DNA from: a virus
Lineage: Duplodnaviria > Caudoviricetes
IMG/VR virus record: IMGVR_UViG_3300030202_002195
Location: 1-61,231 of that record
DNA: 61,231 bases
Direction: 5' to 3' (one strand)
Numbering within the stretch: position 1 is the first letter of the stretch; the number at the start of each line of letters is the position of its first letter. The translations under genes and the position numbers were made by a program. Of the stretch, positions 254 to 61,231 are shown piece after piece. Below the pieces are notes generated by a model, which did no database searches, was not told the DNA's origin, and saw only the letters and a list, made by a program, of their open reading frames with translations.

Positions 254-329
254 GTTTGTAACTGACAGAGGGTTGCCCCTCTATATTCTATCTCTTTAAC
301 TTACACTTTGACTTGGTGTAGCCATTTGC
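254..329. repeat. 76-bp sequence identical to contig end 61156-61231
   Basis: Direct comparison; identity begins 4 bp before GTAACTGAC and the sequences differ to the left. Confidence 0.95.
258..282 (-). repeat. Hammerhead substrate-like site 1 (hairpin + GUC^AGUUAC)
   Basis: Minus strand AGAGGG-GCAA-CCCUCU-GUC-AGUUAC. Confidence 0.9.
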
Positions 330-404
330 AGTAAGTTGTTTAGGAGATGAACAAGCTACCATAGTGGTAGCAATAACAAGTGTTGCAATAATTAACTTCT
401 TCAT
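288..404 (-). CDS. Small lipoprotein (38 aa), not in ORF track
   Basis: MKKLIIATLVIATTMVAC-SSPKQLTANGYTKSKCKLKR: basic N-terminus, hydrophobic core, lipobox MVAC. Confidence 0.75.
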   Translation of the reverse strand: MKKLIIATLVIATTMVACSSPKQLTANGYTKSKCKLKR

Positions 405-405
405 C

Positions 406-711
406 TTAAAAAGGTAATAGTGAGTTAATAAATTCAGTTCCGTTGATTCTCATATCAATCAATCTCTTCAAAGGTATCGTTCGGTATGCACCCTTCTTTG
501 TATCCCATACAATAGCATTCTTTCTTGCTCTTGCATCATACTTCAAAGTGCCACCCTTCAAACCTTTGGTTACACCAGTGCGACACACCATCTTTCGAGT
601 CGTGCCATCTTTCTTGATGAATGTAACCGAGAAGAATCTTCCCTTACTTAAATCAATCTCCTTCTGTAATCTGTCGCACCACACATCTTGTGGTATCATA
701 ACTTTGTTCAT
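406..711 (-). CDS. WYL_2/DUF2693-like SH3 (Sm-like) barrel protein
   Basis: FSVTFIKKDGTTRKM...VWDTKKGAYRTIPL pattern; start reassigned to ATG 711, 25 nt after site 2. Confidence 0.7.
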   Translation of the reverse strand: MNKVMIPQDVWCDRLQKEIDLSKGRFFSVTFIKKDGTTRKMVCRTGVTKGLKGGTLKYDARARKNAIVWDTKKGAYRTIPLKRLIDMRINGTEFINSLLPF

Positions 712-730
712 AATTTTGTAGTTTAAATTT

Positions 731-756
731 GTAACTGACACCAATCATAAGATTGG
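731..756 (-). repeat. Hammerhead substrate-like site 2
   Basis: CCAAUC-UUAU-GAUUGG-U-GUC-AGUUAC. Confidence 0.9.
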
Positions 757-957
757 CTCATTGAAATCTTCTCCGTAGTATTCTTGGGTACAGAATCTAC
801 TGCATAGTTTGTTCCCTCGTTCCACTTGCTCATCCGTAAGTTCTTCATCACACCACTTGCAAGTTGGATTAGATACCTCATCTCTTGAGTCATCCGTAGG
901 TCGGTGGTAAAGTGAATCAATAAAACTTGCGAATCCTTGTAAATCATTATCATTCAT
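745..957 (-). CDS. Small zinc-finger protein (70 aa)
   Basis: CKWC...CSRFC; start reassigned to ATG 957. Confidence 0.7.
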   Translation of the reverse strand: MNDNDLQGFASFIDSLYHRPTDDSRDEVSNPTCKWCDEELTDEQVERGNKLCSRFCTQEYYGEDFNEPIL

Positions 958-975
958 AGTAGTAAATTTTAGTTT

Positions 976-999
976 GTAACTGACCCCTCCAAAGGAGGG
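976..999 (-). repeat. Hammerhead substrate-like site 3
   Basis: CCCUCC-UUU-GGAGGG-GUC-AGUUAC. Confidence 0.9.
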
Positions 1000-1007
1000 T
1001 AAATGCA

Positions 1008-1442
1008 TTACACATTTGATGGTTGAAGGATGTACTCACAAGCTACCTCGTGATACTCGATAGTACCCTCGAAAGTTCTGATTCTGTTCTTATCTACTGA
1101 AATGTATCCAGTATCTTCAGAATCATCCCCTTGCCAATACATAATCCCTTCTGCGTAGATAGGAGAATCCTTACTACACTCGATTAAAAACTTGATGAAG
1201 TGTTTTATCCATCCGATACCTTCGTATGTCTTCTCGGTTTCATTCCAAGAAAACAAACCTTTGTTGTCGTGGTTACTGACTTCAAAGTTACACCATATCG
1301 AAGGAAATTCTCTTCTTTGGTCATTGTAGCCATATTGACTATCGTGCCTTTCTCGAGTCATTTCATTCCAAGTATCTAATTCAATTCTTGTGAATGGTCT
1401 GCTTGTTGCAAGTACACCATTCCATTCGGTATTATAACCCAT
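1008..1442 (-). CDS. Early hypothetical protein (144 aa)
   Basis: ORF after site 4; MGYNTEW...WC...EKTY...GIMYWQGDDSED resembles a common phage early protein pattern. Confidence 0.85.
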   Translation of the reverse strand: MGYNTEWNGVLATSRPFTRIELDTWNEMTRERHDSQYGYNDQRREFPSIWCNFEVSNHDNKGLFSWNETEKTYEGIGWIKHFIKFLIECSKDSPIYAEGIMYWQGDDSEDTGYISVDKNRIRTFEGTIEYHEVACEYILQPSNV

Positions 1443-1464
1443 AATTTTGTAGTTTTAATTATTC

Positions 1465-1490
1465 GTAACTGACAGAGGGCATTGCCCTCT
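1465..1490 (-). repeat. Hammerhead substrate-like site 4
   Basis: AGAGGGC-AAU-GCCCUCU-GUC-AGUUAC. Confidence 0.9.
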
Positions 1491-1494
1491 TACT

Positions 1495-1809
1495 TTACAC
1501 TAAATCTCCATTCTCATCAAAATCTCCCATAACAAATTCTGTTGGCATTGTGAAAAACTTGATTGCATCTAAATCTTTAGATGGTATTTCATCAAACATC
1601 AAGTTACCAATCAGAGTCATTGTATTAAATTCAAGATTCAAAGGTGATAGTATCTCTCTCAATTTAGAGTAGTATTTCAATGATAATCTACACCACACAT
1701 CTTCCTTATCATATTCGGTAGGATTGTCATATGCATTGATGCGTTCTTTGTACTCATTTCTGTACTCGGTTACAAGAGATAATACTCTTGCTTTCATTCC
1801 TATTGTCAT
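1495..1809 (-). CDS. Early hypothetical protein (104 aa)
   Basis: ORF 24 nt after site 5. Confidence 0.8.
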   Translation of the reverse strand: MTIGMKARVLSLVTEYRNEYKERINAYDNPTEYDKEDVWCRLSLKYYSKLREILSPLNLEFNTMTLIGNLMFDEIPSKDLDAIKFFTMPTEFVMGDFDENGDLV

Positions 1810-1827
1810 TGTAGTAAAAATTGGTTT

Positions 1828-1856
1828 GTAACTGACAAGAGTCTATTTAGACTCTT
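1828..1856 (-). repeat. Hammerhead substrate-like site 5
   Basis: AAGAGUCU-AAAU-AGACUCUU-GUC-AGUUAC. Confidence 0.9.
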
Positions 1857-1947
1857 CTTCACTTTCAATGATAAACTTCTCCATAAAGTAGAAGAATGTA
1901 CCGAAGATTGAAAGCATAATGATAATTTCAAGTATGTAAGCTAACAT
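1843..1947 (-). CDS. Single-pass membrane peptide (34 aa), not in ORF track
   Basis: MLAYILEIIIMLSIFGTFFYFMEKFIIESEEESK; ATG 25 nt after site 6, stop inside the site 5 hairpin. Confidence 0.75.
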   Translation of the reverse strand: MLAYILEIIIMLSIFGTFFYFMEKFIIESEEESK

Positions 1948-1966
1948 AATTTTGTAGTGTTTAGTT

Positions 1967-1995
1967 GTAACTGACAAGAGGTTATTCAACCTCTT
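1967..1995 (-). repeat. Hammerhead substrate-like site 6
   Basis: AAGAGGUU-GAAU-AACCUCUU-GUC-AGUUAC. Confidence 0.9.
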
Positions 1996-2182
1996 CATCT
2001 TTGGGTAGTTTGTCCCAATTTACTGCATCATCAATCGATTGAATAAGCAGTTGTTGATTCTCTTCTGTTATGAGCATTTCTGCTTGAAATACACTATCTA
2101 CATTAGAGAAGGTAGTGTGTTTTTGCTCTCCAATGAAAGTATGTAATGTACCTTCATTATCAATAAAATAACTTGTAATCAT
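1982..2182 (-). CDS. Early hypothetical protein (66 aa, acidic)
   Basis: ORF 26 nt after site 7. Confidence 0.8.
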   Translation of the reverse strand: MITSYFIDNEGTLHTFIGEQKHTTFSNVDSVFQAEMLITEENQQLLIQSIDDAVNWDKLPKDEEVE

Positions 2183-2202
2183 TGTAGTAAATTTAATTGT
2201 TT

Positions 2203-2231
2203 GTAACTAACACTCTCTGATTACAGAGAGT
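2203..2231 (-). repeat. Hammerhead substrate-like site 7 (GUU variant)
   Basis: ACUCUCUG-UAAU-CAGAGAGU-GUU-AGUUAC. Confidence 0.85.
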
Positions 2232-2457
2232 TATAAAGGTTAATAATGTATTCTAATTCTTGTTCAAGGTTAATCAAGTCATCCTCTGTTACTCGTTCGC
2301 CCAGCAACCATCTGTTCTCGTGTAATGCCCAAGTGACATCTCCGATATGATTCTCTACTTGTTTCTTGTTCCTTGTTAAGAATGATTTCTTAGATGAGGT
2401 AGTCTTGTATTTAGCAATCTCCTCTTGATAAAAATCTTTGTAAGTGTATTCTAACAT
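2221..2457 (-). CDS. First early protein (78 aa), hypothetical
   Basis: ORF 24 nt after the ribozyme cis cleavage site. Confidence 0.8.
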   Translation of the reverse strand: MLEYTYKDFYQEEIAKYKTTSSKKSFLTRNKKQVENHIGDVTWALHENRWLLGERVTEDDLINLEQELEYIINLYNSL

Positions 2458-2475
2458 TGTAGTAAATATTGGTTT

Positions 2476-2587
2476 GTAACTGACACAGATACATTCTCAA
2501 GTGTATCTGTCGTTTGTGTTTCGACCATCTAAGGTAGGTGCTTGAACACCCTCCAGAGTTTATACTCTCTGGCATCATCAGAGTTAC
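2476..2587 (-). ncRNA. Type I hammerhead ribozyme with expanded stem II; contains cis site 8
   Basis: GUAACU(2587-2582)-CUGAUGA(2581-2575)-U-GCCA...UGGU-C-GAAAC(2522-2518)...hairpin-GUC(2484-2482)^AGUUAC(2481-2476); 6-bp stem I, complete core. Confidence 0.85.
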
Positions 2588-2781
2588 CTAAGCTACTTAA
2601 GGTAGCTAATCTGTACTACATTTCCCATTGACTGATGTTTCTGGTGTGCTTCTATCTGATTCGATTGCTCTGTATCTTCCTATGCTCTATCGCCCACCAA
2701 ACTAAGAGATTTCACATCTGTATCATTGTTTGCTACGATAGTAGGTAAGATAGCCATTAGGCATCACCATAATTGTCAGTC

Positions 2782-2793: not shown

Positions 2794-2823
2794 TATCCCA
2801 AACTCGTTCGTTCAAGAATTGTT

Positions 2824-2853
2824 CAAAAATAGTCTAAATATCTTACATATCAA
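2824..2853 (-). promoter_or_regulatory. Host sigma-type early promoter
   Basis: TTG(2853-2851)-N19-TATTTTTG(2831-2824), matching the Flavobacterium/Bacteroidota -33/-7 consensus. Confidence 0.75.
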
Positions 2854-17165: not shown

Positions 17166-17300
17166 ATGGAAATTAAATTAAACGAAAATCAAATCAATCA
17201 AATCAACAAATTATTACAAAGCCTACCGATAAGTCATTTAGAAATAGTTCAAGAGATTAGTGCTATAATGAATCAGGCCATTGTTGATAATAAAAAATAA
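17166..17300 (+). CDS. Small protein (44 aa), probable fibre assembly chaperone
   Basis: MEIKLNENQINQINKLLQSLP... directly after the fibre gene. Confidence 0.6.
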   Translation: MEIKLNENQINQINKLLQSLPISHLEIVQEISAIMNQAIVDNKK

Positions 17301-46200: not shown

Positions 46201-49200
46201 TTCTAAGATGCCTCCAAGCTTTGGTGATGTAAAGGGTGGTGCTAAAGTAGGTGCTAAGTTGTATTCAAAGATACTAAAGCTTAGAGCTAAGTTAGAAAAG
46301 GATAAGACATTAAGTAAGAATGAAGTAATGGATCGTCTTATTGAGTTTTTACAAGCTCAACCTGAATACATAGCTGAGGGGAAGAAGGGTGGTCTTACTG
46401 TTCAACAAGCTAAGATGGAGACCGAACTTCAAAGAGAGACAGGTATACGACCAACTAAAAATATTGGAGCCAATCTTCGTGCAGCTCGTCAGCTTATAAG
46501 AAACACTAATAGAACTAAAAAGAATCTTCAAGCTATCAAAAGAGAGTTGAGAAACTTTATCCGCAAATCTCTACCTAAAGACTCTTATACTAAAAGTGAG
46601 GTAATAAACATGGTTCGTAAGATTACAGATGCTGATGCCACTAACATAGATAGGTTGATGGGTGAGGTTGAGACCTTTGTAATGAAGAGAGCTATCCGTG
46701 ATTTGGATTCTAAAATATCTAAGATATTAGATTTAAAACAGTACACCAAGAGGTCAGGCAAAAGAAAAGCTGCAAAGGGTGTAGATGTAACAGTTCTTGA
46801 AAGACTTACATTCATTTCAGATTTTTACGCAGACATTAAAAATGCTCAGACCGCAGACTCTTTAGGTAAACTATACGAGTCACTACTTAGTGAGTTTAAT
46901 AAGTTAGCTAAAAAGCCTGAACCAACTGACGCTGAGATTCAAAAGATGGTAGACTTAGAGATACTTATGTCTTTAACTAATGCTGAGGTAATGAAAGATC
47001 AGATTGATGCTAACAGGATAGACGCTTTAGATAAAGCGGCATCTAACCTTGCGGACCTTGTAGCTTTTGGTAAGACAAATCTCAAAGATCAAATCAATGA
47101 GGCTCGTCAAAAGTATCTGAATGATTTTGCTATAGCTTATCAAGCTATAAGAAATGACAAAGACAGGTTAGATATGAATGATCCTGAAACTAAAGAGATG
47201 CTTCGAGATCAAGAAATATTAGACGCTCAAGACCCAGATGTTAAAGGTGTGCAGAAAAGATTAAAGAAATGGTATGGAGGTCTTAGAACAATGCTTGGAA
47301 GACCATTCAACGCCTTGATGGATCTTAGCACATTGATGAATCATATTGATGCAATGCCAGGGGATTTGTTTGGAGGGGAACTTCAGACTCTTGTTACTGA
47401 TAGAATAGACGCTTCAAACAGAGAGTTTAAAGGTCGTATTATGTTGGTGGAAAAAGCTGTAACACTAAAGCTTCAAGATATATTCGGAAAGAAATGGAAG
47501 TCGTTAGTGCCTAAGCTAAGAGAACCTAAACCCACTGGTATATTTATTGAAAATAGAGCTGGTAGAAAAGAGTTGATACTGAGTCAAAATCAAATGTACT
47601 ATTATTACAATCAGTACAAAGACCCTGCTAACGCAGGCAAGTTTGAGAAAACGTTTGGTGATAACTATGTTGAAATAATGGAGCAGATTACTGAACAGCT
47701 TGATCCTAAAGTAAAAGAGTTTGCAGACTGGCAGGTCAACGAGTTCTTCCCATCATTATATAACCACTACAACGAAGTGTATAAAAAAATATACCGAACC
47801 AATATGCCTTGGAATCAGTTCTACGCAGGTATGTTATACACTCAAGGTCAAAAGGAAGCGGCTGGGGTTCTTAATATGTTAGGTGAAGGTAACCCATACC
47901 AGACATCTGTGGGTACTGGGTCTACAATAGCAAGACAAGCTAATAACAATCCAATATTAGAAATGGATGGTACAGACGCTCTGTTTACCTACTTAAGAAA
48001 TATGGAATACTTCTCTGCTTATGCAGAAAGTATAAGAGATATTAATAAAATATTTACCAACGATATTATACGTGGAAACATAAAACGATTGTACGGTAAA
48101 GATATAATGGGTAAAATAGATACTATAATAGAGCGTGTAGCATCTAAAGGTTTGCAGTCTCAACAGTCAGCTATATTTATTAACTGGATGAACAATGCCT
48201 TTATCTTGTCAAGATTAGGATTAAGCCCACTAATCCACGTTAAACAGATGACTTCTGTATTTACATACGCTAATGATATTGGTGTAACTAATTGGTTGAA
48301 GTATGGAGCTGGACTTGCTAACATTCCAAAGCTTGTAAGAACCTGGAAAGAGATGGGTAATAATTCTGTTTATATGCAAGACAGAAAGTACGAAAGCATT
48401 GTTAAAGTTTTAGAAAGCTATAGCGATACTGCAATGCAAGAGTTTATTCCAACACCAGTTAAGGATAAGATAGTTAACATGATGATGTTCTTCATTAAGA
48501 CTGGTGATAGAAATGCAATTATGTTAGGTGGTATGCCAAACTACTTGTACTACAAAGACCAAGCTTTGAAAGCAGGTAAGAGTGAGCAAGAGGCTATTGA
48601 CGAAGCTATCATTAAGTTTGAAAGAGATACTAAGAGAACTCAGCAGTCATCTGATATACAAGATAGAGATGTACTACAAACTGGTGATCCTTTGTATCGT
48701 GCTTTGAATATGTTCTTGACAACACCTAAACAGTATATGCGTAAAGAAATACAAGCGTTTACAAACCTCAACCGAAAGCTTATGGCTTGGGATAAAACTG
48801 CTGGAAAAGGAACTCGTGGAGAAAACTTTAGAACATTAGCTATGTACCACGTGTTTATGCCTGTTCTTTTCCAATGGGTAACTAACGGTATGCCTGGATT
48901 ACTTGCTGAATGGGAAGACGAGGATGAAGCAGATTTATTAAGAGCGGCTGTTATAGGAAACTTAAACGCACTATTTATTATAGGAGATGTGTTTAATGTT
49001 ATTGGGGACGTTGCCACTGGTAAACCTTGGGCTGGTAATCCAACAAGGAACATGCCTATAGTTGCAGTTGCGGCTAATATAGCTAAGCAATATGACAGGA
49101 TTAATAAGATAAAAGATCCTGAAAAGAAAGCGGAAGCTACCAAGAAGATGTTTTACGAAATTTTAACTTTAGGTGGAATACCTGCCAGTAATATAGATAA

Positions 49201-49507
49201 GATAGCTAATAACTTTATGAAGGTTGTTGAGGGTGGTGAATCGCCTGAGAAAGCTATAATGAGATTGTTAAATTATTCAGAGTATCAAATCGAAGGTAAG
49301 CAAAAGAAAAAGAAGAAGCCTAAAAGAACAACTAAGCTTACTAAAGAAGAGATGAAGAAGTATGATCCTGAAGCTTACTACGAAATGATGGACGCAAAGA
49401 AGGAGTATGAGCGTGAGAACGCTGAGTATCTATATCAGCAGAAGCTTGATAAACGAGAGAGAGAAAGAGAGCGTAGAGAGTATTTAGATGACTTGTACTT
49501 AGACTAA
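40268..49507 (+). CDS. Giant polyvalent ejection protein (3079 aa) with zincin-like HExxH
   Basis: VAHEAFH at ~43390-43408, R(E/D)Q(K/R) linkers, helical C-terminal region. Confidence 0.8.
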   Translation: MEEQVLKDLIATSESLNYNWDEIMPKFPELEGVDLQVLKDYVETAKAYDYNYEVINPKFPELNIKKKDDSLPTGEEEVMVSDTTVVEEPGSSEPSAPETDEVVVEDTEVLETPEPVVQELDDPFENSMQVINLDLMTKNEEAVVPKLEYHFGDYGFKFEQTGLGDRVKAIAPNGEEIVVETDNITDKKDTREGEKLKEFIRANKLDGSQELDLENRYKQNERKFFTDEEVKIELANMNDLAKIQADQIKQYVANKTEFEVLNAQYESMDQAQIDDNPEFMKLWSEQKDALDKQLAQLKNQDNILKLQGVELDRSVGAYYEMKAQTGTKMGAFYNALLQGYSNMASGLADVVIDVSTYLAPLKAQMGEENYNAEVVKKAIEKGFIKGEEENVLQNVERYIELLEGDQLDEINSEILDDNRKLLKAGDDEIVEQPYSQFAGALNEDMGILQAIREGLVTTVGDDETTREYSDLKKQSFWGGALLGLTESLPAMVGGIGGWAQRTAQMYAQVSDALTKEMEDDPTFADVSEAEKAALKLPLGAVVAGLEAVGLRNVMAQTGVAQTVLMRVLRKKSADIAGRSFNEVVSREINNMIAKGALVVTAAGLAEFETGAAQELADIGAKELFNYIKEDEYFKTPENILSEVLYAGAQEAVGGFILGVPGAISTAARKYDFTKLDEGVFEMFEDISKDPAYKDAYVQIIKQAILDGDITKQEGQSQLDAYNEVVNVMNQIPVDFSTEQKKKALGILLRTQKLEQEIEGKDPRLVKRQKQEIEDLNQQLDNILYEETDASTEQSTVEETVPVESETTEEVVDGVPDQVQRPTREGDTQTEGTQSQETEEKIVDGKVGDTFTSNRGTEVIVKKTKNLTITESQTETVNPADQRNFGLKKTTKIYEQIYGDRMNGTEPVPKLNTYQNESVVTGRKTTQVTEETKDLQLMVEGEVTEDTDVSTDQDGQVFEQVDEVVSINRASKPPKRTNQFKNFVQKKARRAGKALARIAPDVKIVLHENAEDYFNVTNSRGKGTFVDNTVHINLESADRTTVAHEAFHAILLSKLKTDAAAGRVTKNMMTAISKSLNKDSELKKSIDAFASNYDENIQNEEKLAQIIGEIAAGYKELDAGSKSTLRRWIDRIAKGLGIKVEEFTQTEQDVVNLLNTIAKKVTTGQEIQEGEVDLIEKLQDDDLLNTPPYEGGETLTVNPEGPKDPEPRDQKNIYSKINFATNLPVVSLQEFVNKVGGNLFAVTSDATGLGFDSQGDRIDGGFGYSAITDNLNNGIGFASLNPTFAKMTLSKIAKRFKAGTKIGVMIMVQSPNATLGNYYGGKYLGRALGQIKKSNPNEYQVVVDGVRELLENNKSVKKELDKNTDFNAETILDLVSNPENYTEAEFGKEWIKDTNFEIRRILLNSLFINSQETRTTKQTNPAKLKLKEAGFTMRDFLMEYGDKQLLGENNLKENKGGFVVGGFEMIIPEDIDKALADIDNKGIVHPQFNGKLPSTGNNFLFDGLYPIQENFVEYAKKETTISKEQQESADAAVRKMFKEDKFYKDEFLSGPKKVAKSKRGYANLKTGPKIRFKAESPQFLEERTPGITASVAKGLGLSLDKDIPTKEAFEKPVAREQKGDALTFQEMETLYDVEQREQKDMPKLTQKQVDEALQTDKVARRIIAEGNQPKQGENVGVRLNLNVFKNTGLPIQAIHQGTKTDAYKRVDGVSGNFRGKVINYAPAVTLKDVYLNTHQKAVYQVKNKIKNKFPLASVDGLYQDIPYDKQDLTGTELRFNPFNTMLFETLDGTPVRSVEEATIYGTRVFARGKIEYFTEENTPPPYEPTKTEKREQKDVKFKIQKKRIYKETPRALTILTSGYGGKFINLPMSQITISEAPPKRGYYGQDIGESGEMVRITMPQWLFSRNTELEETGGFELETKPKKREQRDVFKKDMSATEIIIAGRDNNFSDASIKEYLTKIRKLKVKEVNELMAIKADLFSKMPPSFGDVKGGAKVGAKLYSKILKLRAKLEKDKTLSKNEVMDRLIEFLQAQPEYIAEGKKGGLTVQQAKMETELQRETGIRPTKNIGANLRAARQLIRNTNRTKKNLQAIKRELRNFIRKSLPKDSYTKSEVINMVRKITDADATNIDRLMGEVETFVMKRAIRDLDSKISKILDLKQYTKRSGKRKAAKGVDVTVLERLTFISDFYADIKNAQTADSLGKLYESLLSEFNKLAKKPEPTDAEIQKMVDLEILMSLTNAEVMKDQIDANRIDALDKAASNLADLVAFGKTNLKDQINEARQKYLNDFAIAYQAIRNDKDRLDMNDPETKEMLRDQEILDAQDPDVKGVQKRLKKWYGGLRTMLGRPFNALMDLSTLMNHIDAMPGDLFGGELQTLVTDRIDASNREFKGRIMLVEKAVTLKLQDIFGKKWKSLVPKLREPKPTGIFIENRAGRKELILSQNQMYYYYNQYKDPANAGKFEKTFGDNYVEIMEQITEQLDPKVKEFADWQVNEFFPSLYNHYNEVYKKIYRTNMPWNQFYAGMLYTQGQKEAAGVLNMLGEGNPYQTSVGTGSTIARQANNNPILEMDGTDALFTYLRNMEYFSAYAESIRDINKIFTNDIIRGNIKRLYGKDIMGKIDTIIERVASKGLQSQQSAIFINWMNNAFILSRLGLSPLIHVKQMTSVFTYANDIGVTNWLKYGAGLANIPKLVRTWKEMGNNSVYMQDRKYESIVKVLESYSDTAMQEFIPTPVKDKIVNMMMFFIKTGDRNAIMLGGMPNYLYYKDQALKAGKSEQEAIDEAIIKFERDTKRTQQSSDIQDRDVLQTGDPLYRALNMFLTTPKQYMRKEIQAFTNLNRKLMAWDKTAGKGTRGENFRTLAMYHVFMPVLFQWVTNGMPGLLAEWEDEDEADLLRAAVIGNLNALFIIGDVFNVIGDVATGKPWAGNPTRNMPIVAVAANIAKQYDRINKIKDPEKKAEATKKMFYEILTLGGIPASNIDKIANNFMKVVEGGESPEKAIMRLLNYSEYQIEGKQKKKKKPKRTTKLTKEEMKKYDPEAYYEMMDAKKEYERENAEYLYQQKLDKRERERERREYLDDLYLD

Positions 49508-49824
49508 AAGTTCTTGTCAAAGTTTTCTCTTTCAACTTCAAGTTTGTAATATAGGAATGCGTGGAACCCATTGATGTGAGAGTCAGTGGGAAAGAAATAC
49601 TTCCAGCCTTTGGACATGCCTCTGTTTATATAATAACAAAAAGCCAACCCAATCTTACCAGTATTCTTTTTAAATCTAACCACTGCTGTGTGGTCTGATG
49701 TTGGTATAACTTCTTCAACATGAAATGTTTCTTTGTTTGAATTACCTTCCCTATCTGTTCTTGAATATCTCAAGGCCAGCTCAGCTGCAAACTCGTTCAG
49801 CTCTATTGCTATCTCTTTTTTCAT
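49504..49824 (-). CDS. Hypothetical protein (106 aa)
   Basis: Last ORF of the minus-strand operon. Confidence 0.7.
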   Translation of the reverse strand: MKKEIAIELNEFAAELALRYSRTDREGNSNKETFHVEEVIPTSDHTAVVRFKKNTGKIGLAFCYYINRGMSKGWKYFFPTDSHINGFHAFLYYKLEVERENFDKNF

Positions 49825-50161
49825 TCCTTCTTTGATCAGTTACTATTCTGTGACAGTTAGCACACCTAACCTCACACTTGTCTATCTCAGCTTGTATTGT
49901 TTTTAATCCGTAGGACTGTCGTGCCATATCAGAGACACATCTAATCTTTTCTCCTCTGACGTGGTCAAAGTCTAATACTACAGGATTGTTTTCCCCACAA
50001 TCAATACAACCTCTTTCTGCTTTTATCTTGTCAATGTAAATCTTATTCCTATCTGACCTAACCCTATTAGTTTTAAGAGACCTGGCTTTTACTTCTTTCT
50101 TGTGTTGTTCGTAGTAACGCTTTGACGCTTTCGCCTGGTCTTCTTTATTTTTATAGGGCAT
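49781..50161 (-). CDS. HNH endonuclease
   Basis: CIDC...DFDH...KCEVRCANCH. Confidence 0.85.
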   Translation of the reverse strand: MPYKNKEDQAKASKRYYEQHKKEVKARSLKTNRVRSDRNKIYIDKIKAERGCIDCGENNPVVLDFDHVRGEKIRCVSDMARQSYGLKTIQAEIDKCEVRCANCHRIVTDQRRNEKRDSNRAERVCS

Positions 50162-56959: not shown

Positions 56960-57373
56960 TTAATTTAAGTTTAATAGTTGTTGTTTTCTTTGTGAATACT
57001 TTTGGATTATCTTTTCTCGTGAGTTCTTTAGTCGCTTGATGTACTTATCATTCTTTCTACTATTCATCTCACTTTGTATTCTTCCTTCAATGATTTTTAT
57101 TTTCCTTTCATAGTTACCAAGAGAAGTGAGGAGAACACCTTTCTTCCATCCGTGATCGTAAAAGTGTTGATACTCTTCACTGGTTAGTTCTTGAAAGTAG
57201 TCTCCACCCTTCGTGGTATTTAGGATTTCGATTGCTCCTGAAGGGTACTTATATAATAGTATGCCGAGTTTTATAATACCTTGTTTGCCACCAAAACTTT
57301 TTGGATGACCAGCACCAAAATCCTCCATACCTTCTTGGTATATATCTTCTAAACTATAGGTAGGAAATTTCAT
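56960..57373 (-). CDS. Hypothetical protein (137 aa)
   Basis: ORF in operon. Confidence 0.7.
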   Translation of the reverse strand: MKFPTYSLEDIYQEGMEDFGAGHPKSFGGKQGIIKLGILLYKYPSGAIEILNTTKGGDYFQELTSEEYQHFYDHGWKKGVLLTSLGNYERKIKIIEGRIQSEMNSRKNDKYIKRLKNSREKIIQKYSQRKQQLLNLN

Positions 57374-57647
57374 TCGCTATATCCTTGAAGTCATTGTCTT
57401 TGTCAATCATTTCTTTTGCTTTCTTGTATCCATGTATGATGGTAGAGTGAGACACAGAGTGTCCATAATCCTCCATAAACCTTTGAATATAAGATATTCT
57501 AATAGGTCTTTCCATACATAAATAGTAAAGCATTTGTCGTGCATCAACGCAGTCCCTTCTTCTCGTTTTCTCCATCATTTGATCTAAAGTCAAATGAAAT
57601 TGCTTTGCAATAGCATAAGCATATTTATCAAAGATTTCTTTCTTCAT
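57354..57647 (-). CDS. Second DnaA C-terminal-like HTH protein
   Basis: KTRRR..VDARQMLYYLC...HSTIIHG. Confidence 0.75.
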   Translation of the reverse strand: MKKEIFDKYAYAIAKQFHLTLDQMMEKTRRRDCVDARQMLYYLCMERPIRISYIQRFMEDYGHSVSHSTIIHGYKKAKEMIDKDNDFKDIANEISYL

Positions 57648-57668
57648 TTCGTGTTCTGTTTTGAGTTG

Positions 57669-57700
57669 CTAATTTAAGTTATTTCTATAACTTTTGCAAA
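57669..57700 (-). promoter_or_regulatory. Probable middle promoter
   Basis: TTTG-N20-TAAATTAG (variant -7 element). Confidence 0.45.
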
Positions 57701-57711
57701 CTTTGTTCATA

Positions 57712-57981
57712 TTATTTCTCTTCTTTCTTACACTGAACCTTGTATAAAATAAGGTATCCAATCAAATCAAGAAGGGTATCTTCAGTTTTATCGTTGATCC
57801 CCACTTGCTTGATTCTACTTAACTTGTCATCTATTCGTGCAAGTATGCCCTCTTTTGGAGAGAGTTTAGAGAATATGTTTGGAGGATTGTTAGCAGTATC
57901 TCCATACGCTTTGTTCTTTTCCAGTAGTAACATAACTACTTCTCTTCCTACTTCCTTAATTAGTTCATCAGTTTTCTTCAT
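57712..57981 (-). CDS. DUF1599/Nmad1-like (dNTP pyrophosphatase-like) protein
   Basis: KNKAYGD...RIDDKLSR...EDT..DL.GY. Confidence 0.75.
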   Translation of the reverse strand: MKKTDELIKEVGREVVMLLLEKNKAYGDTANNPPNIFSKLSPKEGILARIDDKLSRIKQVGINDKTEDTLLDLIGYLILYKVQCKKEEK

Positions 57982-57982
57982 A

Positions 57983-58189
57983 TTACTTATAGCTTTTTCT
58001 TTCAAAATCAGGTTTGTAATTTGGGTTGTCAGCTTTGAGTTCTACATACGCTTCATAATGTCGAAACGCTTCCTCCAATACTGATTCTAAATCTACCAGT
58101 TGGTAGTCCATCTTGGATGTTTCCATCCAATGTGATACATTCTTTAATATCTGTACAGATATTTTCTTATGGTCTTTATAGTTTGCCAT
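57983..58189 (-). CDS. Hypothetical protein (68 aa)
   Basis: ORF in operon. Confidence 0.65.
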   Translation of the reverse strand: MANYKDHKKISVQILKNVSHWMETSKMDYQLVDLESVLEEAFRHYEAYVELKADNPNYKPDFERKSYK

Positions 58190-58337
58190 CTTTATTAATT
58201 TTAAAGTTATTTACTCGTTGTTCAAATTCTTTTCTTCTCTTTTCTGCCCTATGCTCCATCCATAACCAAAGTAGGATGTAAGAGCATAGGATTAAAAGAA
58301 AGCTACTTAATAGTGCTTGAGTCATTGTCATAGTCAT
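58176..58337 (-). CDS. Small single-pass membrane protein
   Basis: ...QALLSSFLLILCSYILLWLWMEHRAEKRRK...; start uncertain. Confidence 0.55.
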   Translation of the reverse strand: MTMTMTQALLSSFLLILCSYILLWLWMEHRAEKRRKEFEQRVNNFKINKDGKL

Positions 58338-58369
58338 CAATTTTTTGTTGCAGTTTTTGTATTAGTTTC

Positions 58370-59053
58370 TTATTGGGAGATGGCTTCATCTTCTCCAATA
58401 GAATCTTCTTCCATAAAATTAGCTTGTATATATTTCTTCGCATCTTCTAAAGTTTTACCTGCAAATTCGCTACACCAATCCACATACCATCCGATACCAT
58501 CTTCAAAGTTTGGGTGTTCTTCTGCAAGTTTGGTTAATGTTACTGGGTATCTTCCACCACAATCTATCTCTTCTTCTCCATTCCAAGTGGGTACATCATA
58601 GTGTACGACATCTATGAAGTCTCCTCCTTCGATGGATATTTCTGCACCCCATCCTTGTTCTTCCTCAAAAGTCCAAAACATATCAGGAAAGTCTTGAGCC
58701 ATTTGCTTGATGATTAGTTCATCCATTGGCGACCAAGCAGTAGTGAAACGAAGTTGATCATCATCTTTCTCAAATTCATAGCATCCCCACTTGGTACCCC
58801 AATTAGCATTACACCAGTCGTACCAATTGTCGTGTCCGTACTTGTGTTTAAGTTCTTCTGACTTTGCTTCTGTAATAGTGCAGTTCTCTGTATCTCCAAT
58901 TCTTTGTGGAGATGTAGTTCCTTCAAGTTCTTTAGGCATTGGCTTGTAGTATCTACAGATACCACCCACTTTTTCAATAGCATCTAAAATTTCTTGTCTT
59001 TCTTTGGTAATCTCACTACCAATAGAAATGTTGTGATAACAATGATTAGGCAT
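58370..59053 (-). CDS. DUF1281/YubB-like ferredoxin-fold protein
   Basis: MPN.C.....PMP.EL...WYDW...NWGTKW...F.TAWSP. Confidence 0.8.
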   Translation of the reverse strand: MPNHCYHNISIGSEITKERQEILDAIEKVGGICRYYKPMPKELEGTTSPQRIGDTENCTITEAKSEELKHKYGHDNWYDWCNANWGTKWGCYEFEKDDDQLRFTTAWSPMDELIIKQMAQDFPDMFWTFEEEQGWGAEISIEGGDFIDVVHYDVPTWNGEEEIDCGGRYPVTLTKLAEEHPNFEDGIGWYVDWCSEFAGKTLEDAKKYIQANFMEEDSIGEDEAISQ

Positions 59054-59055
59054 AA

Positions 59056-59235
59056 TTAGTTGTTTTTAGTTAATTCATTTACTTTCTTCTCCAAGTATTC
59101 CATATACTCAATCATAGCTTCAAGGTAGTACCTATCATCTGATTTAAGTTCTTCCATACGGAAACCTAAAAAATAATCTAACCCATCTTCGACTCTGTCG
59201 AGTAGGTCTTTCTTTACTTTAATTCTGTTTGACAT
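59056..59235 (-). CDS. Hypothetical protein (59 aa), not in ORF track
   Basis: MSNRIKVKKDLLDRVEDG... with AU-rich leader. Confidence 0.6.
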   Translation of the reverse strand: MSNRIKVKKDLLDRVEDGLDYFLGFRMEELKSDDRYYLEAMIEYMEYLEKKVNELTKNN

Positions 59236-59250
59236 AATAATTTAATTAGT

Positions 59251-59303
59251 TGGTTAGTGGGATGGAGGGTTGCGAAGCCCTCTAAAGTACGCATTACCAT
59301 CCC
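59251..59303 (-). ncRNA. tRNA-like minihelix (acceptor stem + T-arm only)
   Basis: GGGAUG...GAGGG-CUUCGCAA-CCCUC-CAUCCC-ACUAACCA. Confidence 0.4.
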
Positions 59304-59425
59304 TTCGTTACAAACAAGTATGAATAATAAATAAGGCAAGAGTTTGGTTTCGCTACTGAATTTTACTCTTATTAAGTGTATTGTAGTTAATTAAGCTACC
59401 ACCACCACACACCTTATTTTCATAT
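59304..59425 (-). ncRNA. Candidate structured small RNA
   Basis: Outer stem AAAUAAGG/CCUUAUUU with inner GUAG/CUAC and AAGAGU/ACUCUU stems; directly after a promoter. Confidence 0.45.
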
Positions 59426-59431
59426 CTCGTG

Positions 59432-59463
59432 CAAATATATAATATAATTTGTTTATATCCAAA
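59432..59463 (-). promoter_or_regulatory. Host-type promoter
   Basis: TTTG-N20-TATATTTG. Confidence 0.7.
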
Positions 59464-59498
59464 TTATCTTTGACATAATGGGAAATGTAGTTTAGTTA

Positions 59499-59777
59499 CT
59501 ATAAGTGTCCTCCTTCTCCGTTGGCTTCATACCTCCATTCGCTTTCTGCGTTTGTGTCGGTCATACCAGTATAATCATCTACACCAGTTCCATACTCAAA
59601 ATTAGCTTCACTAATAGCTTTATCTATCTTATCTTCATACAAATTAGCATTGTCAAATAGATAATCTGTTATTGATGCACCTACATCCGTATACTCTTTT
59701 AGTTTCTTTTCATCAACATCAATTTCTACCTCTGCATACTTGTGGTACACACTTCTTTGCATAATTTTAACTTTCAT
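59499..59777 (-). CDS. Last early-array protein (92 aa)
   Basis: ORF 24 nt after site 9. Confidence 0.8.
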   Translation of the reverse strand: MKVKIMQRSVYHKYAEVEIDVDEKKLKEYTDVGASITDYLFDNANLYEDKIDKAISEANFEYGTGVDDYTGMTDTNAESEWRYEANGEGGHL

Positions 59778-59795
59778 TGTAATATAGTTTTAGTT

Positions 59796-59823
59796 GTAAC
59801 TGACAAGGGAAGTTATTCTTCCC
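59796..59823 (-). repeat. Hammerhead substrate-like site 9
   Basis: GGGAAG-AAUAA-CUUCCC-UU-GUC-AGUUAC. Confidence 0.9.
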
Positions 59824-60088
59824 AAGCATTAGAGTATGCTGGATTGTACCACTCGTGCCACATTCCATACTTCTCCATTATTCCATTGAGTTTATCAGAC
59901 CCCCAAAAGTTATTGTAATAATCAAGGTGTAAATCAGTTTCTTCCGTAACACCTTCACACCATATCCAAAAATAACCTCTGTCTTCGTGATAATGTTCAT
60001 CTCCCCAATTTTTCTGTACTGCTATTCCTAATTTTTTTAGTTCTTCATAACAAGAAATAACATTTTTGGGTGGATTTTGATAGTTCAT
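59813..60088 (-). CDS. Early hypothetical protein (91 aa)
   Basis: Start reassigned to ATG 60088, 25 nt after site 10. Confidence 0.8.
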   Translation of the reverse strand: MNYQNPPKNVISCYEELKKLGIAVQKNWGDEHYHEDRGYFWIWCEGVTEETDLHLDYYNNFWGSDKLNGIMEKYGMWHEWYNPAYSNAWEE

Positions 60089-60107
60089 AATAATATAGTT
60101 TTGATTC

Positions 60108-60133
60108 GTAACTGACAGAGGGATACACCCTCT
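60108..60133 (-). repeat. Hammerhead substrate-like site 10
   Basis: AGAGGG-UGUAU-CCCUCU-GUC-AGUUAC. Confidence 0.9.
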
Positions 60134-60139
60134 CATTTG

Positions 60140-60463
60140 TTAGAATATCTCTAACTTGGAAAGCAATTCTTTAGTGTGCTTTCTAACTAATTTCTCCTTG
60201 AAATTAATTTGAAGTTCTCTGTGTAACTTATGTTTAAGACCACTCCATTCAACAATCCTTGTTAGACTTCTTCGTTTCTCATTATCGTGTCCAGCAGTAT
60301 CACACCATTCCTTGTAATCTGAAATGTAATCGTAAAACATTTCTCTACCATTACACTCTTCTTGGATGTCTTTGATAATTTTTACTATCTCTTCTGCTTT
60401 CACTTTTAAATAGTCATCAGACTTTCTTTCAAGTTGCTTTTGAATTTCATTTGTAGTTTTCAT
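60140..60463 (-). CDS. Early hypothetical protein (107 aa)
   Basis: Start reassigned to ATG 60463, 23 nt after site 11. Confidence 0.8.
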   Translation of the reverse strand: MKTTNEIQKQLERKSDDYLKVKAEEIVKIIKDIQEECNGREMFYDYISDYKEWCDTAGHDNEKRRSLTRIVEWSGLKHKLHRELQINFKEKLVRKHTKELLSKLEIF

Positions 60464-60480
60464 AATAATAAATTTGATTT

Positions 60481-60506
60481 GTAACTGACAGAGGAAATTA
60501 ATCCTC
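60481..60506 (-). repeat. Hammerhead substrate-like site 11
   Basis: GAGGA-UUAAUU-UCCUC-U-GUC-AGUUAC. Confidence 0.9.
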
Positions 60507-60728
60507 CCATTCTGTGTAATAGTAGAAGTCGCATTGATAGTAATCTTCCAGTAAAAAATCATCTGTCAATCTACCCTCTGCAACATCCTTATCGTATTGT
60601 GGGTTGCCCTTCTTCTCTATCTTACGAAGATAATTTATCAAATCCTTCTCGTACTTGATGTACATCTCTCCATCTCGAATACAAAAACCTTCGGTCATTG
60701 TTTCTTTGGTAATATCACATACTCTCAT
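60498..60728 (-). CDS. Early hypothetical protein (76 aa)
   Basis: ORF 25 nt after site 12. Confidence 0.8.
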   Translation of the reverse strand: MRVCDITKETMTEGFCIRDGEMYIKYEKDLINYLRKIEKKGNPQYDKDVAEGRLTDDFLLEDYYQCDFYYYTEWED

Positions 60729-60747
60729 TTTAATATAGTATTAGTTT

Positions 60748-60851
60748 GTAACTGACAAGGTTGGTGTGAAGCACATTGGCTATTGCCTTTGGGGATGATT
60801 TTTACGAGGGGCTGACTCCCTATTACCCTCCTACTTACCACACCTAACCTT
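60748..60851 (-). ncRNA. Site 12 with ~95-nt branched RNA in place of the simple hairpin
   Basis: AAGGUU-A-GGUGUG...CACACC-AACCUU-GUC-AGUUAC enclosing GAGGG/CCCUC and GGC/GCC hairpins. Confidence 0.6.
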
Positions 60852-60857
60852 AATTAT

Positions 60858-61139
60858 TTAATACGCTGATACTGGTAGGTTTGAGTCTACATATTCCATA
60901 TCCAAACCCATCCTTTTACAATAGTAAATGCGTAATTCAAATGCAAGATCTATGAGAGCCATATCTGACTTCCAATTTTGTATGGTACAATCATTTCCTA
61001 TTGCACCCAACATTCCACCACCAAGATAGTTTTGGTATGCAGTCATCTTTTCCCCTTCGTATCCGAAGTAAGTTAAGTCAATCTCTACACCTCCACCTCT
61101 TGAAGATAGTTGCTCTCTTAATACATTGTCTTTAATCAT
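60858..61139 (-). CDS. Early hypothetical protein (93 aa)
   Basis: ORF 26 nt after site 13. Confidence 0.8.
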   Translation of the reverse strand: MIKDNVLREQLSSRGGGVEIDLTYFGYEGEKMTAYQNYLGGGMLGAIGNDCTIQNWKSDMALIDLAFELRIYYCKRMGLDMEYVDSNLPVSAY

Positions 61140-61159
61140 AATCGTAGTTTTAATTGTTT

Positions 61160-61184
61160 GTAACTGACAGAGGGTTGCCCCTCT
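61160..61184 (-). repeat. Hammerhead substrate-like site 13 (same sequence as site 1)
   Basis: AGAGGG-GCAA-CCCUCU-GUC-AGUUAC. Confidence 0.9.
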
Positions 61185-61231
61185 ATATTCTATCTCTTTA
61201 ACTTACACTTTGACTTGGTGTAGCCATTTGC

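What the first reader, a model, noticed from the sequence alone, without database searches (positions are those of the whole stretch)
59796..61184. Second half of the site array; every site has its own hairpin just before GUC and a fixed-length leader
Seen: at all 13 sites a stem of at least 5 bp, of largely different sequence, ends 0-2 nt before the GUH, so structure is kept while sequence is not. At several sites (2, 5, 6, 7, 9, 11) the upstream gene's last codons and stop form part of the hairpin. The distance from predicted cut to ATG is 23-28 nt in every case. Inference: the hairpin could stack on the 2-3 bp intermolecular stem III, explaining how a short recognition sequence stays specific. 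After cleavage it would cap the upstream mRNA 3' end, while the downstream mRNA gets a uniform 5'-OH AU-rich leader. The hairpins lack U-tracts, so they are not ordinary terminators.
Basis: partly seen in the sequence, partly recalled or inferred. Interest (0 to 1): 0.8.

Follow-up and report, generated by a model that had tools for sequence, protein, structure and literature searches.

The report
Hammerhead half-sites before phage early genes
Each small early gene of this marine phage is preceded by a hairpin, the triplet GUC and a short fixed leader that together look like the cut-site half of a hammerhead ribozyme, while the only matching catalytic half sits once at the head of the operon, so one RNA enzyme may cut many sites, which has not been tested.

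Summary
All 13 sites have a stem ending 0-2 nt before GUC/GUU: 12 simple 6-9 bp hairpins, against 7% of random positions, and one closing stem of a ~95-nt fold. Cut-to-ATG distance is 23-28 nt.

New here: related phages, including cultured Flavobacterium phage elemoA, carry complete compact type I hammerheads at the same place before early genes. In them the hairpin before GUC is helix III. The window's modules are therefore hammerhead substrate halves: helix III hairpin, GUY, and helix I strand AGUUAC.

Only one core (2473-2610, minus strand) matches them. In 26 loci of this lineage I found 157 distinct sites. Of these, 144 have a hairpin, 132 of them flush with the G, using 48 different stems. 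Position 17 is only C or U.

Contigs from other samples break and rejoin exactly at the 9-mer, so the modules are also cassette joints.

The core instead holds three covarying hairpins closed by one G-C pair.

Cleavage, in cis or trans, is untested, and no RNA data exist. The scan noted the same "one hammerhead, many sites" layout before in other genomes.

Verdict: real, RNA-level, a new variant of hammerhead-based mRNA processing. The trans-cleavage reading is plausible but unproven.

The parts
59778..59823 (-). Site 9 module: hairpin 59807-59823 (GGGAAG/CUUCCC, upstream stop codon in its loop), UU spacer, GUC 59802-59804, AGUUAC 59796-59801, 24-nt leader up to ATG 59777
60089..60133 (-). Site 10 module: hairpin 60117-60133 (AGAGGG/CCCUCU), GUC 60114-60116, AGUUAC 60108-60113, 25-nt leader up to ATG 60088
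60464..60507 (-). Site 11 module: hairpin 60490-60507 (GGAGGA/UCCUCU with one G-U pair; upstream stop in loop), GUC 60487-60489, AGUUAC 60481-60486, 23-nt leader up to ATG 60463
60729..60851 (-). Site 12 module: ~95-nt branched fold 60757-60851 whose closing stem ends flush at GUC 60754-60756; AGUUAC 60748-60753; 25-nt leader up to ATG 60728
   Evidence: a homologous fold in L290 and L302
61140..61184 (-). Site 13 module: hairpin 61169-61184 (AGAGGG/CCCUCU), GUC 61166-61168, AGUUAC 61160-61165, 26-nt leader up to ATG 61139
59499..61139 (-). Five small early genes served by these modules (60858-61139, 60498-60728, 60140-60463, 59813-60088, 59499-59777); no Pfam family at E<=0.05
258..2484 (-). 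First half of the array: eight further sites. The G of each GUY lies at 266, 739, 984, 1473, 1836, 1975, 2211 (GUU) and 2484. Same anatomy as the second half
2473..2610 (-). The only hammerhead-type core. Order: hairpin H0; GGUAACU (helix I strand, 2582-2588); CUGAUGA (2575-2581); an extra U; G; three hairpins H1-H3; C-GAAA-C (2518-2525); a 7-nt linker; hairpin; GUC 2482-2484; AGUUAC
2821..2853 (-). Bacteroidetes-type promoter (TTG N19 TAttTTTG) at the head of the early operon; boxA-like GUUCUUUGACA at 2782-2792
   Evidence: the consensus itself is recalled
59429..59463 (-). Second host-type promoter (TTTG ... TAtaTTTG) just after the last array gene; it marks the end of the array's transcription unit

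Best explanation
The hairpin-GUY-AGUUAC-leader modules are the substrate halves of type I hammerhead ribozymes. The hairpin stands for helix III, GUY is the cleavage triplet, and AGUUAC is one strand of helix I. None of the modules has a catalytic core of its own.

The early operon is transcribed from one host-type promoter. Its leader holds the only core, whose arm GUAACU pairs with AGUUAC and whose GAAAC can pair with the G and U of GUY.

The most likely mechanism is this. The leader core cuts its own site first. It then cuts the other sites, on the same transcript or in trans. Each site's hairpin stacks flush on a 2-3 bp helix III.

Cleavage would leave a hairpin-capped upstream message ending in a 2',3'-cyclic phosphate. 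The downstream message would start with a 5'-OH, A-rich leader of about 25 nt.

Because the 9-mer is identical at all sites, it also serves as the crossover point at which related phages swap gene cassettes.

Shown: anatomy, statistics, the positional match to complete hammerheads, cassette breakpoints, and covariation in the leader RNA.
Inferred: that any cut happens, and that the leader core makes it.
For: 1. Hairpins: 12 of 13 sites have flush or near-flush stems of at least 6 bp, against 7% at random positions. The 13th has a flush closing stem.

2. Relatives with complete hammerheads: my type I hammerhead descriptor gave 26 hits in the window, MW202828.1 and 33 GroEL-linked relatives, against 3 in 439 kb of shuffled sequence.
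- Twelve of the hits are compact complete hammerheads: L251 (1), L255 (3), L256 (1), L257 (2), L258 (2), L266 (1), L273 (2).
- In each, the hairpin lies directly between GAAA-C and G-UH, followed by an A-rich leader and ATG.
- Cultured phage elemoA has one too.

3. In those seven loci, every GUH+arm site that the arm patterns found has its own core. Only the window lineage has one core plus many coreless sites.

4. Across 26 loci there are 157 distinct sites:
- 144 have a stem of at least 5 bp, and 132 of these are flush.
- There are 48 distinct stems.
- Position 17 is C in 118 and U in 39, never A or G.
- Position -1 is U in 128 of 157.
- The 5' flank is C in 5 of 132.
- Cut-to-ATG is 20-31 nt, with the mode at 25.

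5. Homologous upstream genes keep a hairpin while its sequence is replaced.

6. No host-type promoter lies at any site; there is one at 2853 and one at 59463.

7. The leader RNA is under structural selection: 8 pairs show changes on both sides and 99.7% of cells are paired.

8. Predicted binding of the leader core to the coreless sites is -5.7 to -8.4 kcal/mol. This is similar to its own site offered in trans, -7.1 to -8.6.

9. Contigs of other samples break and join at 59791/59805, 60117/60128, 60490/60501 and 61156/61169.
Against: - No RNA data: nothing shows a cut at any site.
- The core is non-canonical. It has an unpaired U after A9, a single G-C pair where helix II should be, and three hairpins inside it.
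- Perreault et al. rejected candidates with a mispair next to the core (PMC3088659, methods passage).
- Helix I, the G-C pair and the core bases never vary in the 16 aligned leaders. The search patterns fixed most of them, so they carry no covariation support.
- Helix I is only 6 bp and helix III 2-3 bp, so predicted binding is weak.
- After self-cleavage the core keeps its own hairpin-GUC tethered by a 6-10 nt linker. That tethered end should compete with foreign sites.
- AAA after AGUUAC is as conserved as the paired part (150-155 of 157), and the core cannot pair with it.
- Thirteen of 157 sites lack a perfect flush hairpin. Six of them have a hairpin plus a U-rich tail 17 nt upstream instead.
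- Small nucleolytic ribozymes are described as acting in cis in nature.
- Many of the 157 sites share ancestry, so the counts are not independent.
Confidence: 0.45

Rival explanations
1. Relics that are no longer cut. The modules descend from hammerhead 3' halves and now serve only as intercistronic hairpins plus a shared leader. The identical 9-mer is kept by frequent homologous recombination between cassettes. The phage's own Sak annealing protein and PDDEXK nuclease would drive this.
For: Breakpoints lie exactly at the 9-mer in contigs of other samples and in relatives. The phage encodes Sak SSAP and a PDDEXK nuclease. The core looks degenerate at helix II. The conserved AAA and the leader boxes suggest shared descent or a translation function.
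Against: Recombination needs no hairpin. Yet 48 different stems have been installed flush against the G, and a hairpin is kept when its sequence is replaced. Among 150 distinct candidates found with up to 2 mismatches, 135 are exact GUC/GUU forms. The only varying position is the one a hammerhead leaves unpaired. The leader RNA shows compensatory changes, so it is not decaying.
Confidence: 0.25
2. Protein-made cuts. A host or phage endoribonuclease recognises hairpin plus U-GUY-AGUUAC-AAA and cuts there. The leader hammerhead handles only its own site.
For: The conserved block (U, GUY, AGUUAC, AAA, Y) is longer than what the core can pair with. Short arms make RNA-only recognition weak. One array gene (406-711) encodes a WYL_2/Sm-like fold.
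Against: No nuclease family was found among the 20 early and middle proteins scanned. The motif is the exact complement of the core's arm and carries GUH. That would be a coincidence under this reading.
Confidence: 0.15
3. Promoter-terminator cassettes like the PeSLs of T4-type phages. The hairpin stops transcription from upstream and the 9-mer region is a phage-specific promoter for the next gene.
For: The layout is the same: stop codon, stem-loop, conserved block, short leader, ATG. The elements play the same role as recombination joints (PMC2839356, passages).
Against: No Bacteroidetes-type -33/-7 motif lies at any of the 13 sites. Sigma-70-like matches are at chance level, 10 against 8.5 +/- 3.0, and their -10 boxes overlap the ATG. 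No U-tract is present. No RNA polymerase or sigma family was found in the proteins scanned. The operon has its own promoter and a boxA-like element.
Confidence: 0.07
4. The hairpins act on the opposite (+) strand as terminators of antisense transcription.
For: Read on the + strand, 3 of the 5 hairpins here are followed by T-rich tails and score as terminator-like: 4 hits against 0.6 +/- 0.8 in shuffles.
Against: Stems with G-U pairs on the sense strand (739, 60489) would be A-C mismatches on the + strand. The fixed distance to the sense-strand ATG and the sense-strand GUY motif are left unexplained. The T-rich tails follow from the A-rich gene ends.
Confidence: 0.03

Closest known systems
Clustered self-cleaving hammerheads that flank single genes in prophages and phages (Perreault et al. 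2011, PMC3088659; passages read)
   Same: A hammerhead cleavage triplet and helices sit between small phage genes. The proposed role is to cut long phage transcripts into gene-length messages. Relatives of this phage have exactly this arrangement.
   Different: There, every site carries its own complete core. Here 12 of 13 sites have only helix III, GUY and one helix I strand, and a single core sits in the operon leader.
Discontinuous hammerhead in mammalian CLEC2 mRNAs (Martick et al. 2008; seen only as a reference and one review sentence, the rest recalled)
   Same: Enzyme and substrate parts of one hammerhead lie far apart in one transcript.
   Different: That case has one enzyme part and one substrate part, not one enzyme part and many substrate parts. 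It is not a gene-cassette array.
Engineered trans-cleaving hammerheads (Uhlenbeck-type split ribozymes; review PMC6155905, passages)
   Same: A core strand with two arms binds a separate substrate at NUH and can turn over.
   Different: Designed ribozymes use two open arms of several base pairs. Here helix III would be 2-3 bp extended by the substrate's own hairpin. No natural case is described in the papers I read.
PeSL promoter/stem-loop cassettes of T4-type phages (PMC2839356, passages; PMC4122927, abstract)
   Same: Repeated stem-loop plus conserved block before small accessory early genes. Recombination between copies shuffles, deletes and inserts genes.
   Different: PeSLs contain a consensus host promoter and a working terminator. 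Here there is no promoter motif and no U-tract, and the conserved block is a hammerhead target.
RNase III processing hairpins between phage T7 early genes (recalled, not checked here)
   Same: One long early transcript is cut between genes, leaving hairpin-capped 3' ends.
   Different: T7 sites are long duplexes cut within the stem by a host protein. Here the stems are 6-9 bp and the putative cut is 3 nt past the stem.

Membership tests
Self-cleaving hammerhead ribozyme (each of sites 9-13 taken alone) | Core strand CUGANGA upstream of the site | tested here: not met
   On the minus strand near the array, CUGANGA occurs only at 2581 (the leader), 60420 and 1120. The last two lie inside genes without a matching arm. 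A whole-window scan for CUGANGA...GAAA with a closing helix gave 0 hits.
Self-cleaving hammerhead ribozyme (each of sites 9-13 taken alone) | NUH cleavage triplet preceded by helix III and followed by a helix I strand | tested here: met
   GUC at all five sites. A hairpin or closing stem ends 0-2 nt before it. AGUUAC follows, complementary to GUAACU at 2582-2587.
Hammerhead ribozyme, type I (leader element 2473-2610) | Invariant core bases C3 U4 G5 A6 N7 G8 A9, G12 A13 A14, A15.1-U16.1, H17 | tested here: met
   CUGAUGA, GAAA and GUC are in register. In the 16 aligned relatives they are constant, but the search patterns fixed them.
Hammerhead ribozyme, type I (leader element 2473-2610) | Helix II closing the core between A9 and G12 | tested here: inconclusive
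The data support an extra U, one invariant G-C pair and three covarying hairpins. The compact hammerhead of L251 has the same extra U.
Hammerhead ribozyme, type I (leader element 2473-2610) | Helices I and III | tested here: met
   Helix I is 6 bp (GUAACU/AGUUAC). Helix III is C-G plus the stacked hairpin, or the alternative CACA/UGUG. All cells are paired, but nothing varies, so there is no covariation.
Hammerhead ribozyme, type I (leader element 2473-2610) | Match to the Rfam hammerhead covariance models | tested here: not met
   No hit at gathering score, nor at E<=10 in 2300-2900. This is weak evidence. Of 10 compact complete hammerheads in five relatives, the same library reported one, at 24.7 bits, below threshold.
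Hammerhead ribozyme (any part of the system) | Site-specific self-cleavage giving 2',3'-cyclic phosphate and 5'-OH ends | not testable with these tools
   No RNA run holds the phage. This needs a bench assay.
Intrinsic (Rho-independent) terminator | GC-rich hairpin followed at once by a U-tract on the transcribed strand | tested here: not met
   Every hairpin is followed by GUCAGUUACAAA. No minus-strand terminator-like site was reported in 59400-61231.
PeSL-type promoter/terminator cassette | Consensus host promoter inside each repeat | tested here: not met
   TTG-N-TAnnTTTG is found only at 2853 and 59463 on the sense strand in or beside the array. Sigma-70-type matches are at chance level.
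PeSL-type promoter/terminator cassette | Repeats act as crossover points for gene shuffling | tested here: met
   Joints and loose ends of contigs from three other runs fall at the four sites 59796, 60108, 60481 and 61160. In relatives the same hairpin is followed by different genes.

The most novel reading that the evidence does not exclude
This would be a natural multiple-turnover hammerhead. One leader-encoded catalytic half processes up to 14 substrate halves spread over a 5-kb early transcript. Each substrate presents its own hairpin as a stand-in for helix III, so 8-9 paired bases suffice for specificity. The same 9-mer doubles as the recombination joint of a ribozyme-defined gene-cassette system.
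Probability: 0.35. Interest if true: 0.9.

Novelty: new variant of a known kind. Interest (0 to 1): 0.7.

Why it matters
Small self-cleaving ribozymes are described as working only on their own strand in nature (reviews read). What they do in bacteria and phages is an open question.

This clade of marine Bacteroidetes-type phages offers a natural comparison. Relatives carry a complete hammerhead before several early genes. This lineage keeps one core and 9-14 coreless target halves.

If the single core cuts those sites, it would be the first natural trans-acting, multi-turnover hammerhead. It would also show how a substrate hairpin can replace a long recognition arm, which is useful for ribozyme design.

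If it does not, the array still shows how ribozyme remnants become the joints of a gene-cassette exchange system comparable to the PeSLs of T4-type phages.

Both outcomes can be tested with short transcripts. Cultured phage elemoA and its Flavobacterium host give a system in which at least the complete hammerheads can be studied.

Tried and rejected
Rfam. There were no hits in the window, none in 2300-2900 at E<=10 apart from two chance sRNA matches, and none in ten relatives. I do not count this against a hammerhead. The library reported only 1 of 10 compact complete hammerheads in five relatives, and that one below threshold.

tRNA/tmRNA: none.

N4-like hairpin promoters read by a virion RNA polymerase. 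The 3079-aa protein has no polymerase family in Pfam, PHROGs or PDB sequences. The idea was dropped, though a fold search was not done.

Integron attC-like sites. No inverse core precedes the hairpins, and no integrase appeared among the 32 proteins scanned. The rest of the proteome was not scanned.

Sigma-70-type and Bacteroidetes-type promoters at the sites: not found.

Expression data. No RNA holder was listed. X18 is only guessed to be RNA, and its contigs cannot show ends.

Nearest named phage, MW202828.1. It has a different repeat (a GUGUCG UUAA CGACAC hairpin about 16 nt before the ATG) and no hammerhead by my descriptor. It gives no test of the model.

Test of arm covariation between core and sites: not possible.
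- The 26 loci found with patterns that include the arm necessarily share it.
- L306 and L307, found with a pattern that leaves the arm free, have the same arm.
- So the clade is too shallow for this test.

Chance matches dropped:
- L152 (four copies of the 14-mer inside a repeated coding sequence).
- L280-L282.
- L286.
- Descriptor hits without a helix II or III hairpin: window 55361 and 50412, L257-465, L263, L264, L265, L268, L270, L274.

Megablast of the 3079-aa gene against phages: no match.

They may bear on whether a core like this one has been tested.

Recalled, not checked:
- The Bacteroidetes -33/-7 promoter consensus.
- The lack of Shine-Dalgarno use in this phylum.
- The boxA consensus.
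- The tolerated extra base after A9 in a viroid hammerhead.
- The protection that a 5'-OH gives against 5'-end-dependent RNases.
Full report
WHAT THE WINDOW IS. The window is a whole IMG/VR virus record of 61,231 bp, rated complete. Its terminase is 73% identical to that of the uncultured podovirus MW202828.1. It is 46% identical to those of Flavobacterium 'elemo' phages, and Cellulophaga, Tenacibaculum and Maribacter phages also match. It encodes GroEL, terminase, portal, a Sak annealing protein, a PDDEXK nuclease, a primase-like protein and an SNF2 helicase. The finding lies at the right end, where all genes are on the minus strand. The array continues across the record's ends into 1-2484. 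Positions 61156-61231 repeat 254-329 exactly.

THE OBSERVATION. On the RNA strand the repeat reads hairpin, GUC, AGUUAC, an A-rich leader, then AUG.
- There are thirteen array sites: 12 with exact GUCAGUUAC and one with GUU at 2211.
- The exact copy at 4903 is antisense inside GroEL and has no hairpin. The one-mismatch copy at 1280 is intragenic. I set both aside as chance.
- Twelve of 13 sites have uninterrupted stems of 6-9 bp ending 0 nt (11 sites) or 2 nt (one site) before the G. At 20,000 random positions of the same strand, only 7% have such a stem of at least 6 bp.
- The 13th site (60756) is closed by the outer stem of a ~95-nt branched fold that ends flush at the G.
- Cut-to-AUG distance is 23-28 nt.
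One caveat: four hairpins share AGAGGG/CCCUCU arms, and two are identical through the 76-nt repeat.

NOT PROMOTERS, NOT TERMINATORS. Bacteroidetes-type promoter motifs (recalled consensus TTTG / TAnnTTTG) occur on the sense strand in intergenic position at 2853, ahead of the array, and at 59463, just after it. None occurs at any of the 13 sites. Sigma-70-type matches in 59400-61231 are at chance level, 10 against 8.5 +/- 3.0. No hairpin is followed by a U-tract on the sense strand. The operon leader carries a boxA-like GUUCUUUGACA that recurs in L247, L248, L266 and MW202828.1. This fits one long read-through transcript.

WHAT THE HAIRPIN IS. The scan's notes on this genome pointed me to a hammerhead-like element at 2485-2610. 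I wrote a type I hammerhead descriptor with these requirements:
- CUGANGA;
- GAAA within 100 nt;
- a 15.2-16.2 pair;
- UH;
- at least 5 bp of helix I.
I ran it on the window, MW202828.1 and 33 loci found through the phage GroEL. It gave 26 hits, against 3 in shuffled copies totalling 439 kb.
- Three hits are the window's leader element and its copies in L247 and L248.
- Fourteen rows describe 12 compact, complete hammerheads in seven relatives: L251, L255 (3), L256, L257 (2), L258 (2), L266 and L273 (2).
- Nine are poor matches, which I dropped.
In the 12 good ones a 4-bp helix II hairpin follows CUGANGA. A 4-8 bp hairpin sits directly between GAAA-C and G-UH. The helix I strand, an A-rich leader and an AUG follow. 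Cultured Flavobacterium phage elemoA has one as well, plus a type III-like one.

The hairpin just before GUC is thus the counterpart of hammerhead helix III. The short leader is what hammerhead-processed genes of this phage group have. In the seven relatives, every GUH+arm site that the arm patterns found has its own core.

THE WINDOW'S LINEAGE. A gapped pattern for the leader element found 22 more loci in metagenomes, after dropping one chance hit, L286. Three IMG/VR contigs also belong to the lineage. Each locus has one core followed by 2-14 sites, depending on how much DNA is held.
- With up to two mismatches allowed, 135 of 150 distinct candidates are exact GUCAGUUAC (102) or GUUAGUUAC (33).
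- I then collected sites with GUNAGUUAC, so eight positions were fixed by the search. This gave 157 distinct sites.
- Of these, 144 have a perfect stem of at least 5 bp, and 132 of the 144 are flush.
- The stems have 48 different sequences.
- The free position is C in 118 and U in 39, never A or G.
- The base before the G is U in 128.
- The base 5' of a flush hairpin is C in only 5 of 132, while C makes up 14.3% of this strand.
- Cut-to-AUG is 20-31 nt.
Thirteen sites lack a perfect flush hairpin. Three have long closing stems or large loops, several have imperfect stems, and six have a GC hairpin with a U-rich tail 17 nt upstream.

Where the upstream gene is homologous, the hairpin is kept in one of three ways. 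It stays the same, it changes compensatorily (1975 against L290), or it is replaced outright (1473 against L026). The downstream leader and gene usually differ.

CASSETTE JOINTS. I laid contigs of four runs on 57000-61231. Joints and loose ends fall at 59791/59805, 60117/60128, 60490/60501 and 61156/61169, that is, at four of the five 9-mers. Beyond these points the same leader is found behind other hairpins, for example those of sites 2211 and 2484 before the 61139 gene. The modules are therefore crossover points, as PeSLs are in T4-type phages (PMC2839356).

THE CORE. I aligned sixteen distinct leader sequences from 28 loci.
- A structure with hairpin H0, helix I, one G-C pair, three tandem hairpins H1-H3, the two helix III pairs and the site-1 hairpin is 99.7% paired. 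Eight pairs change on both sides: four in H1, two in H0, one in H2 and one in H3.
So the leader is a selected, structured RNA with a perfect hammerhead core sequence. But its helix II is an extra U, one G-C pair and a three-hairpin junction. L251's compact hammerhead has the same extra U. Core bases, helix I and the G-C pair do not vary, and the search patterns fixed most of them. Activity is therefore open. Perreault et al. discarded candidates with a mispair next to the core unless the context suggested function.

MECHANISM AND ITS WEAK POINTS.
- The core's GAAAC can pair with U16.1 and G16.2, and its next A with the U at -1.
- The substrate's hairpin would stack on these pairs across a nick.
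- Helix I is 6 bp.
- The leader's own site has the same geometry, joined by a linker that varies from 6 to 10 nt.
- Predicted binding of the core to sites 9, 10, 11 and 13 is -5.7 to -8.4 kcal/mol. For its own site offered in trans it is -7.1 to -8.6. This is weak but similar.

Against the idea:
- No RNA evidence exists.
- Helix II is odd.
- The tethered own product should compete.
- The conserved AAA is unexplained.
- Some sites lack a hairpin.
- The literature knows only cis action in nature.
- Searches of the paper library for a natural hammerhead with many separate targets found none (listings; passages).

VERDICT. The modules are real, non-random, RNA-level elements, and they are the substrate halves of hammerheads.
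- I put 0.45 on cleavage by the single leader core.
- 0.25 on uncut relics that serve as hairpin spacers and recombination joints.
- 0.15 on a protein nuclease.
- 0.07 on promoter-terminator cassettes.
- 0.03 on antisense terminators.
The scan has noted the same one-core, many-sites layout in other genomes without sequence likeness to this one. I could not check those.

Noticed in passing
window 61156-61231 and 254-329: This is an exact 76-nt repeat: gene end, hairpin and 9-mer. It is followed by two different genes (61139 or 238). Contigs from run X3 carry both continuations, plus a third in which the 61139 gene follows the hairpin of site 2211. The population therefore differs in cassette content, and the record probably broke at this repeat.
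   Followed up: partly
window 2782-2792 (-): A boxA-like GUUCUUUGACA sits in the early leader. The same 11-mer occurs in L247, L248 and L266, and in the early leader of MW202828.1 (L009, 43603; a second copy on the other strand of L010). It may be a conserved antitermination signal.
   Followed up: partly
window 406-711 (-): One array gene encodes a 101-aa protein with a WYL_2 / Sm-like SH3 barrel (Pfam E 1.3e-6). It could be an RNA-binding helper for the processing system; this is pure speculation.
   Followed up: no
window 59236-59498 (-): This is a non-coding stretch after the array. It holds a host-type promoter (59463-59429), an inverted partial copy of the motif (UUGUUUGUAAC, 59307-59317) and a 19-mer (59329-59347), 17 nt of which (AAACUCUUGCCUUAUUU) also occur in the distant relative L256. 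Relatives skip or replace 59322-59426.
   Followed up: partly
L308 (MT497097.1, Flavobacterium phage elemoA) 18900-18990 (+) and about 17120-17186 (+): The cultured phage carries a compact type I hammerhead just before gene 18989. The record annotates a small minus-strand ORF over it. A type III-like hammerhead (CUGAAGA ... GAAAC, cut after GUA) lies before gene 17187.
   Followed up: partly
L009 (MW202828.1) 43800-50000 (+): The nearest named relative uses a different repeat before at least seven early genes and once in the leader. It is a perfect palindrome hairpin, GUGUCG UUAA CGACAC, 3-4 nt after the stop codon and about 16 nt before the AUG. No hammerhead core was found.
   Followed up: partly
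L260 4300-5700 (-), L249 1200-4700 (-): Other relatives have their own intergenic hairpin families 15-25 nt before early start codons. Examples are UAUAAACCA + GGGAGCG GAAA CGCUCCC, which shows compensatory changes, and GUCUAG NNNN CUAGAC. Neither has a hammerhead core.
   Followed up: no
L026 about 3470-3515 and five or more similar sites in relatives: A few sites lack the flush hairpin. They have instead a GC-rich hairpin with a U-rich tail, which looks like a true terminator, 17 nt upstream of GUCAGUUAC.
   Followed up: no
window 40268-49507 (+): This is a 3079-aa protein with a HEAFH zincin-like motif and one Pfam hit (Phage_L5_gp82, residues 1705-1804). PHROGs, PDB sequences and megablast to phages gave nothing. 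It is probably an injected or virion polyprotein.
   Followed up: partly
window 59400-61231 (+): Read on the + strand, the hairpins at 60117-60133 and 61169-61184 and part of the 60757-60851 fold score as terminator-like (4 hits against 0.6 expected). This is probably a by-product of the A-rich gene ends.
   Followed up: partly
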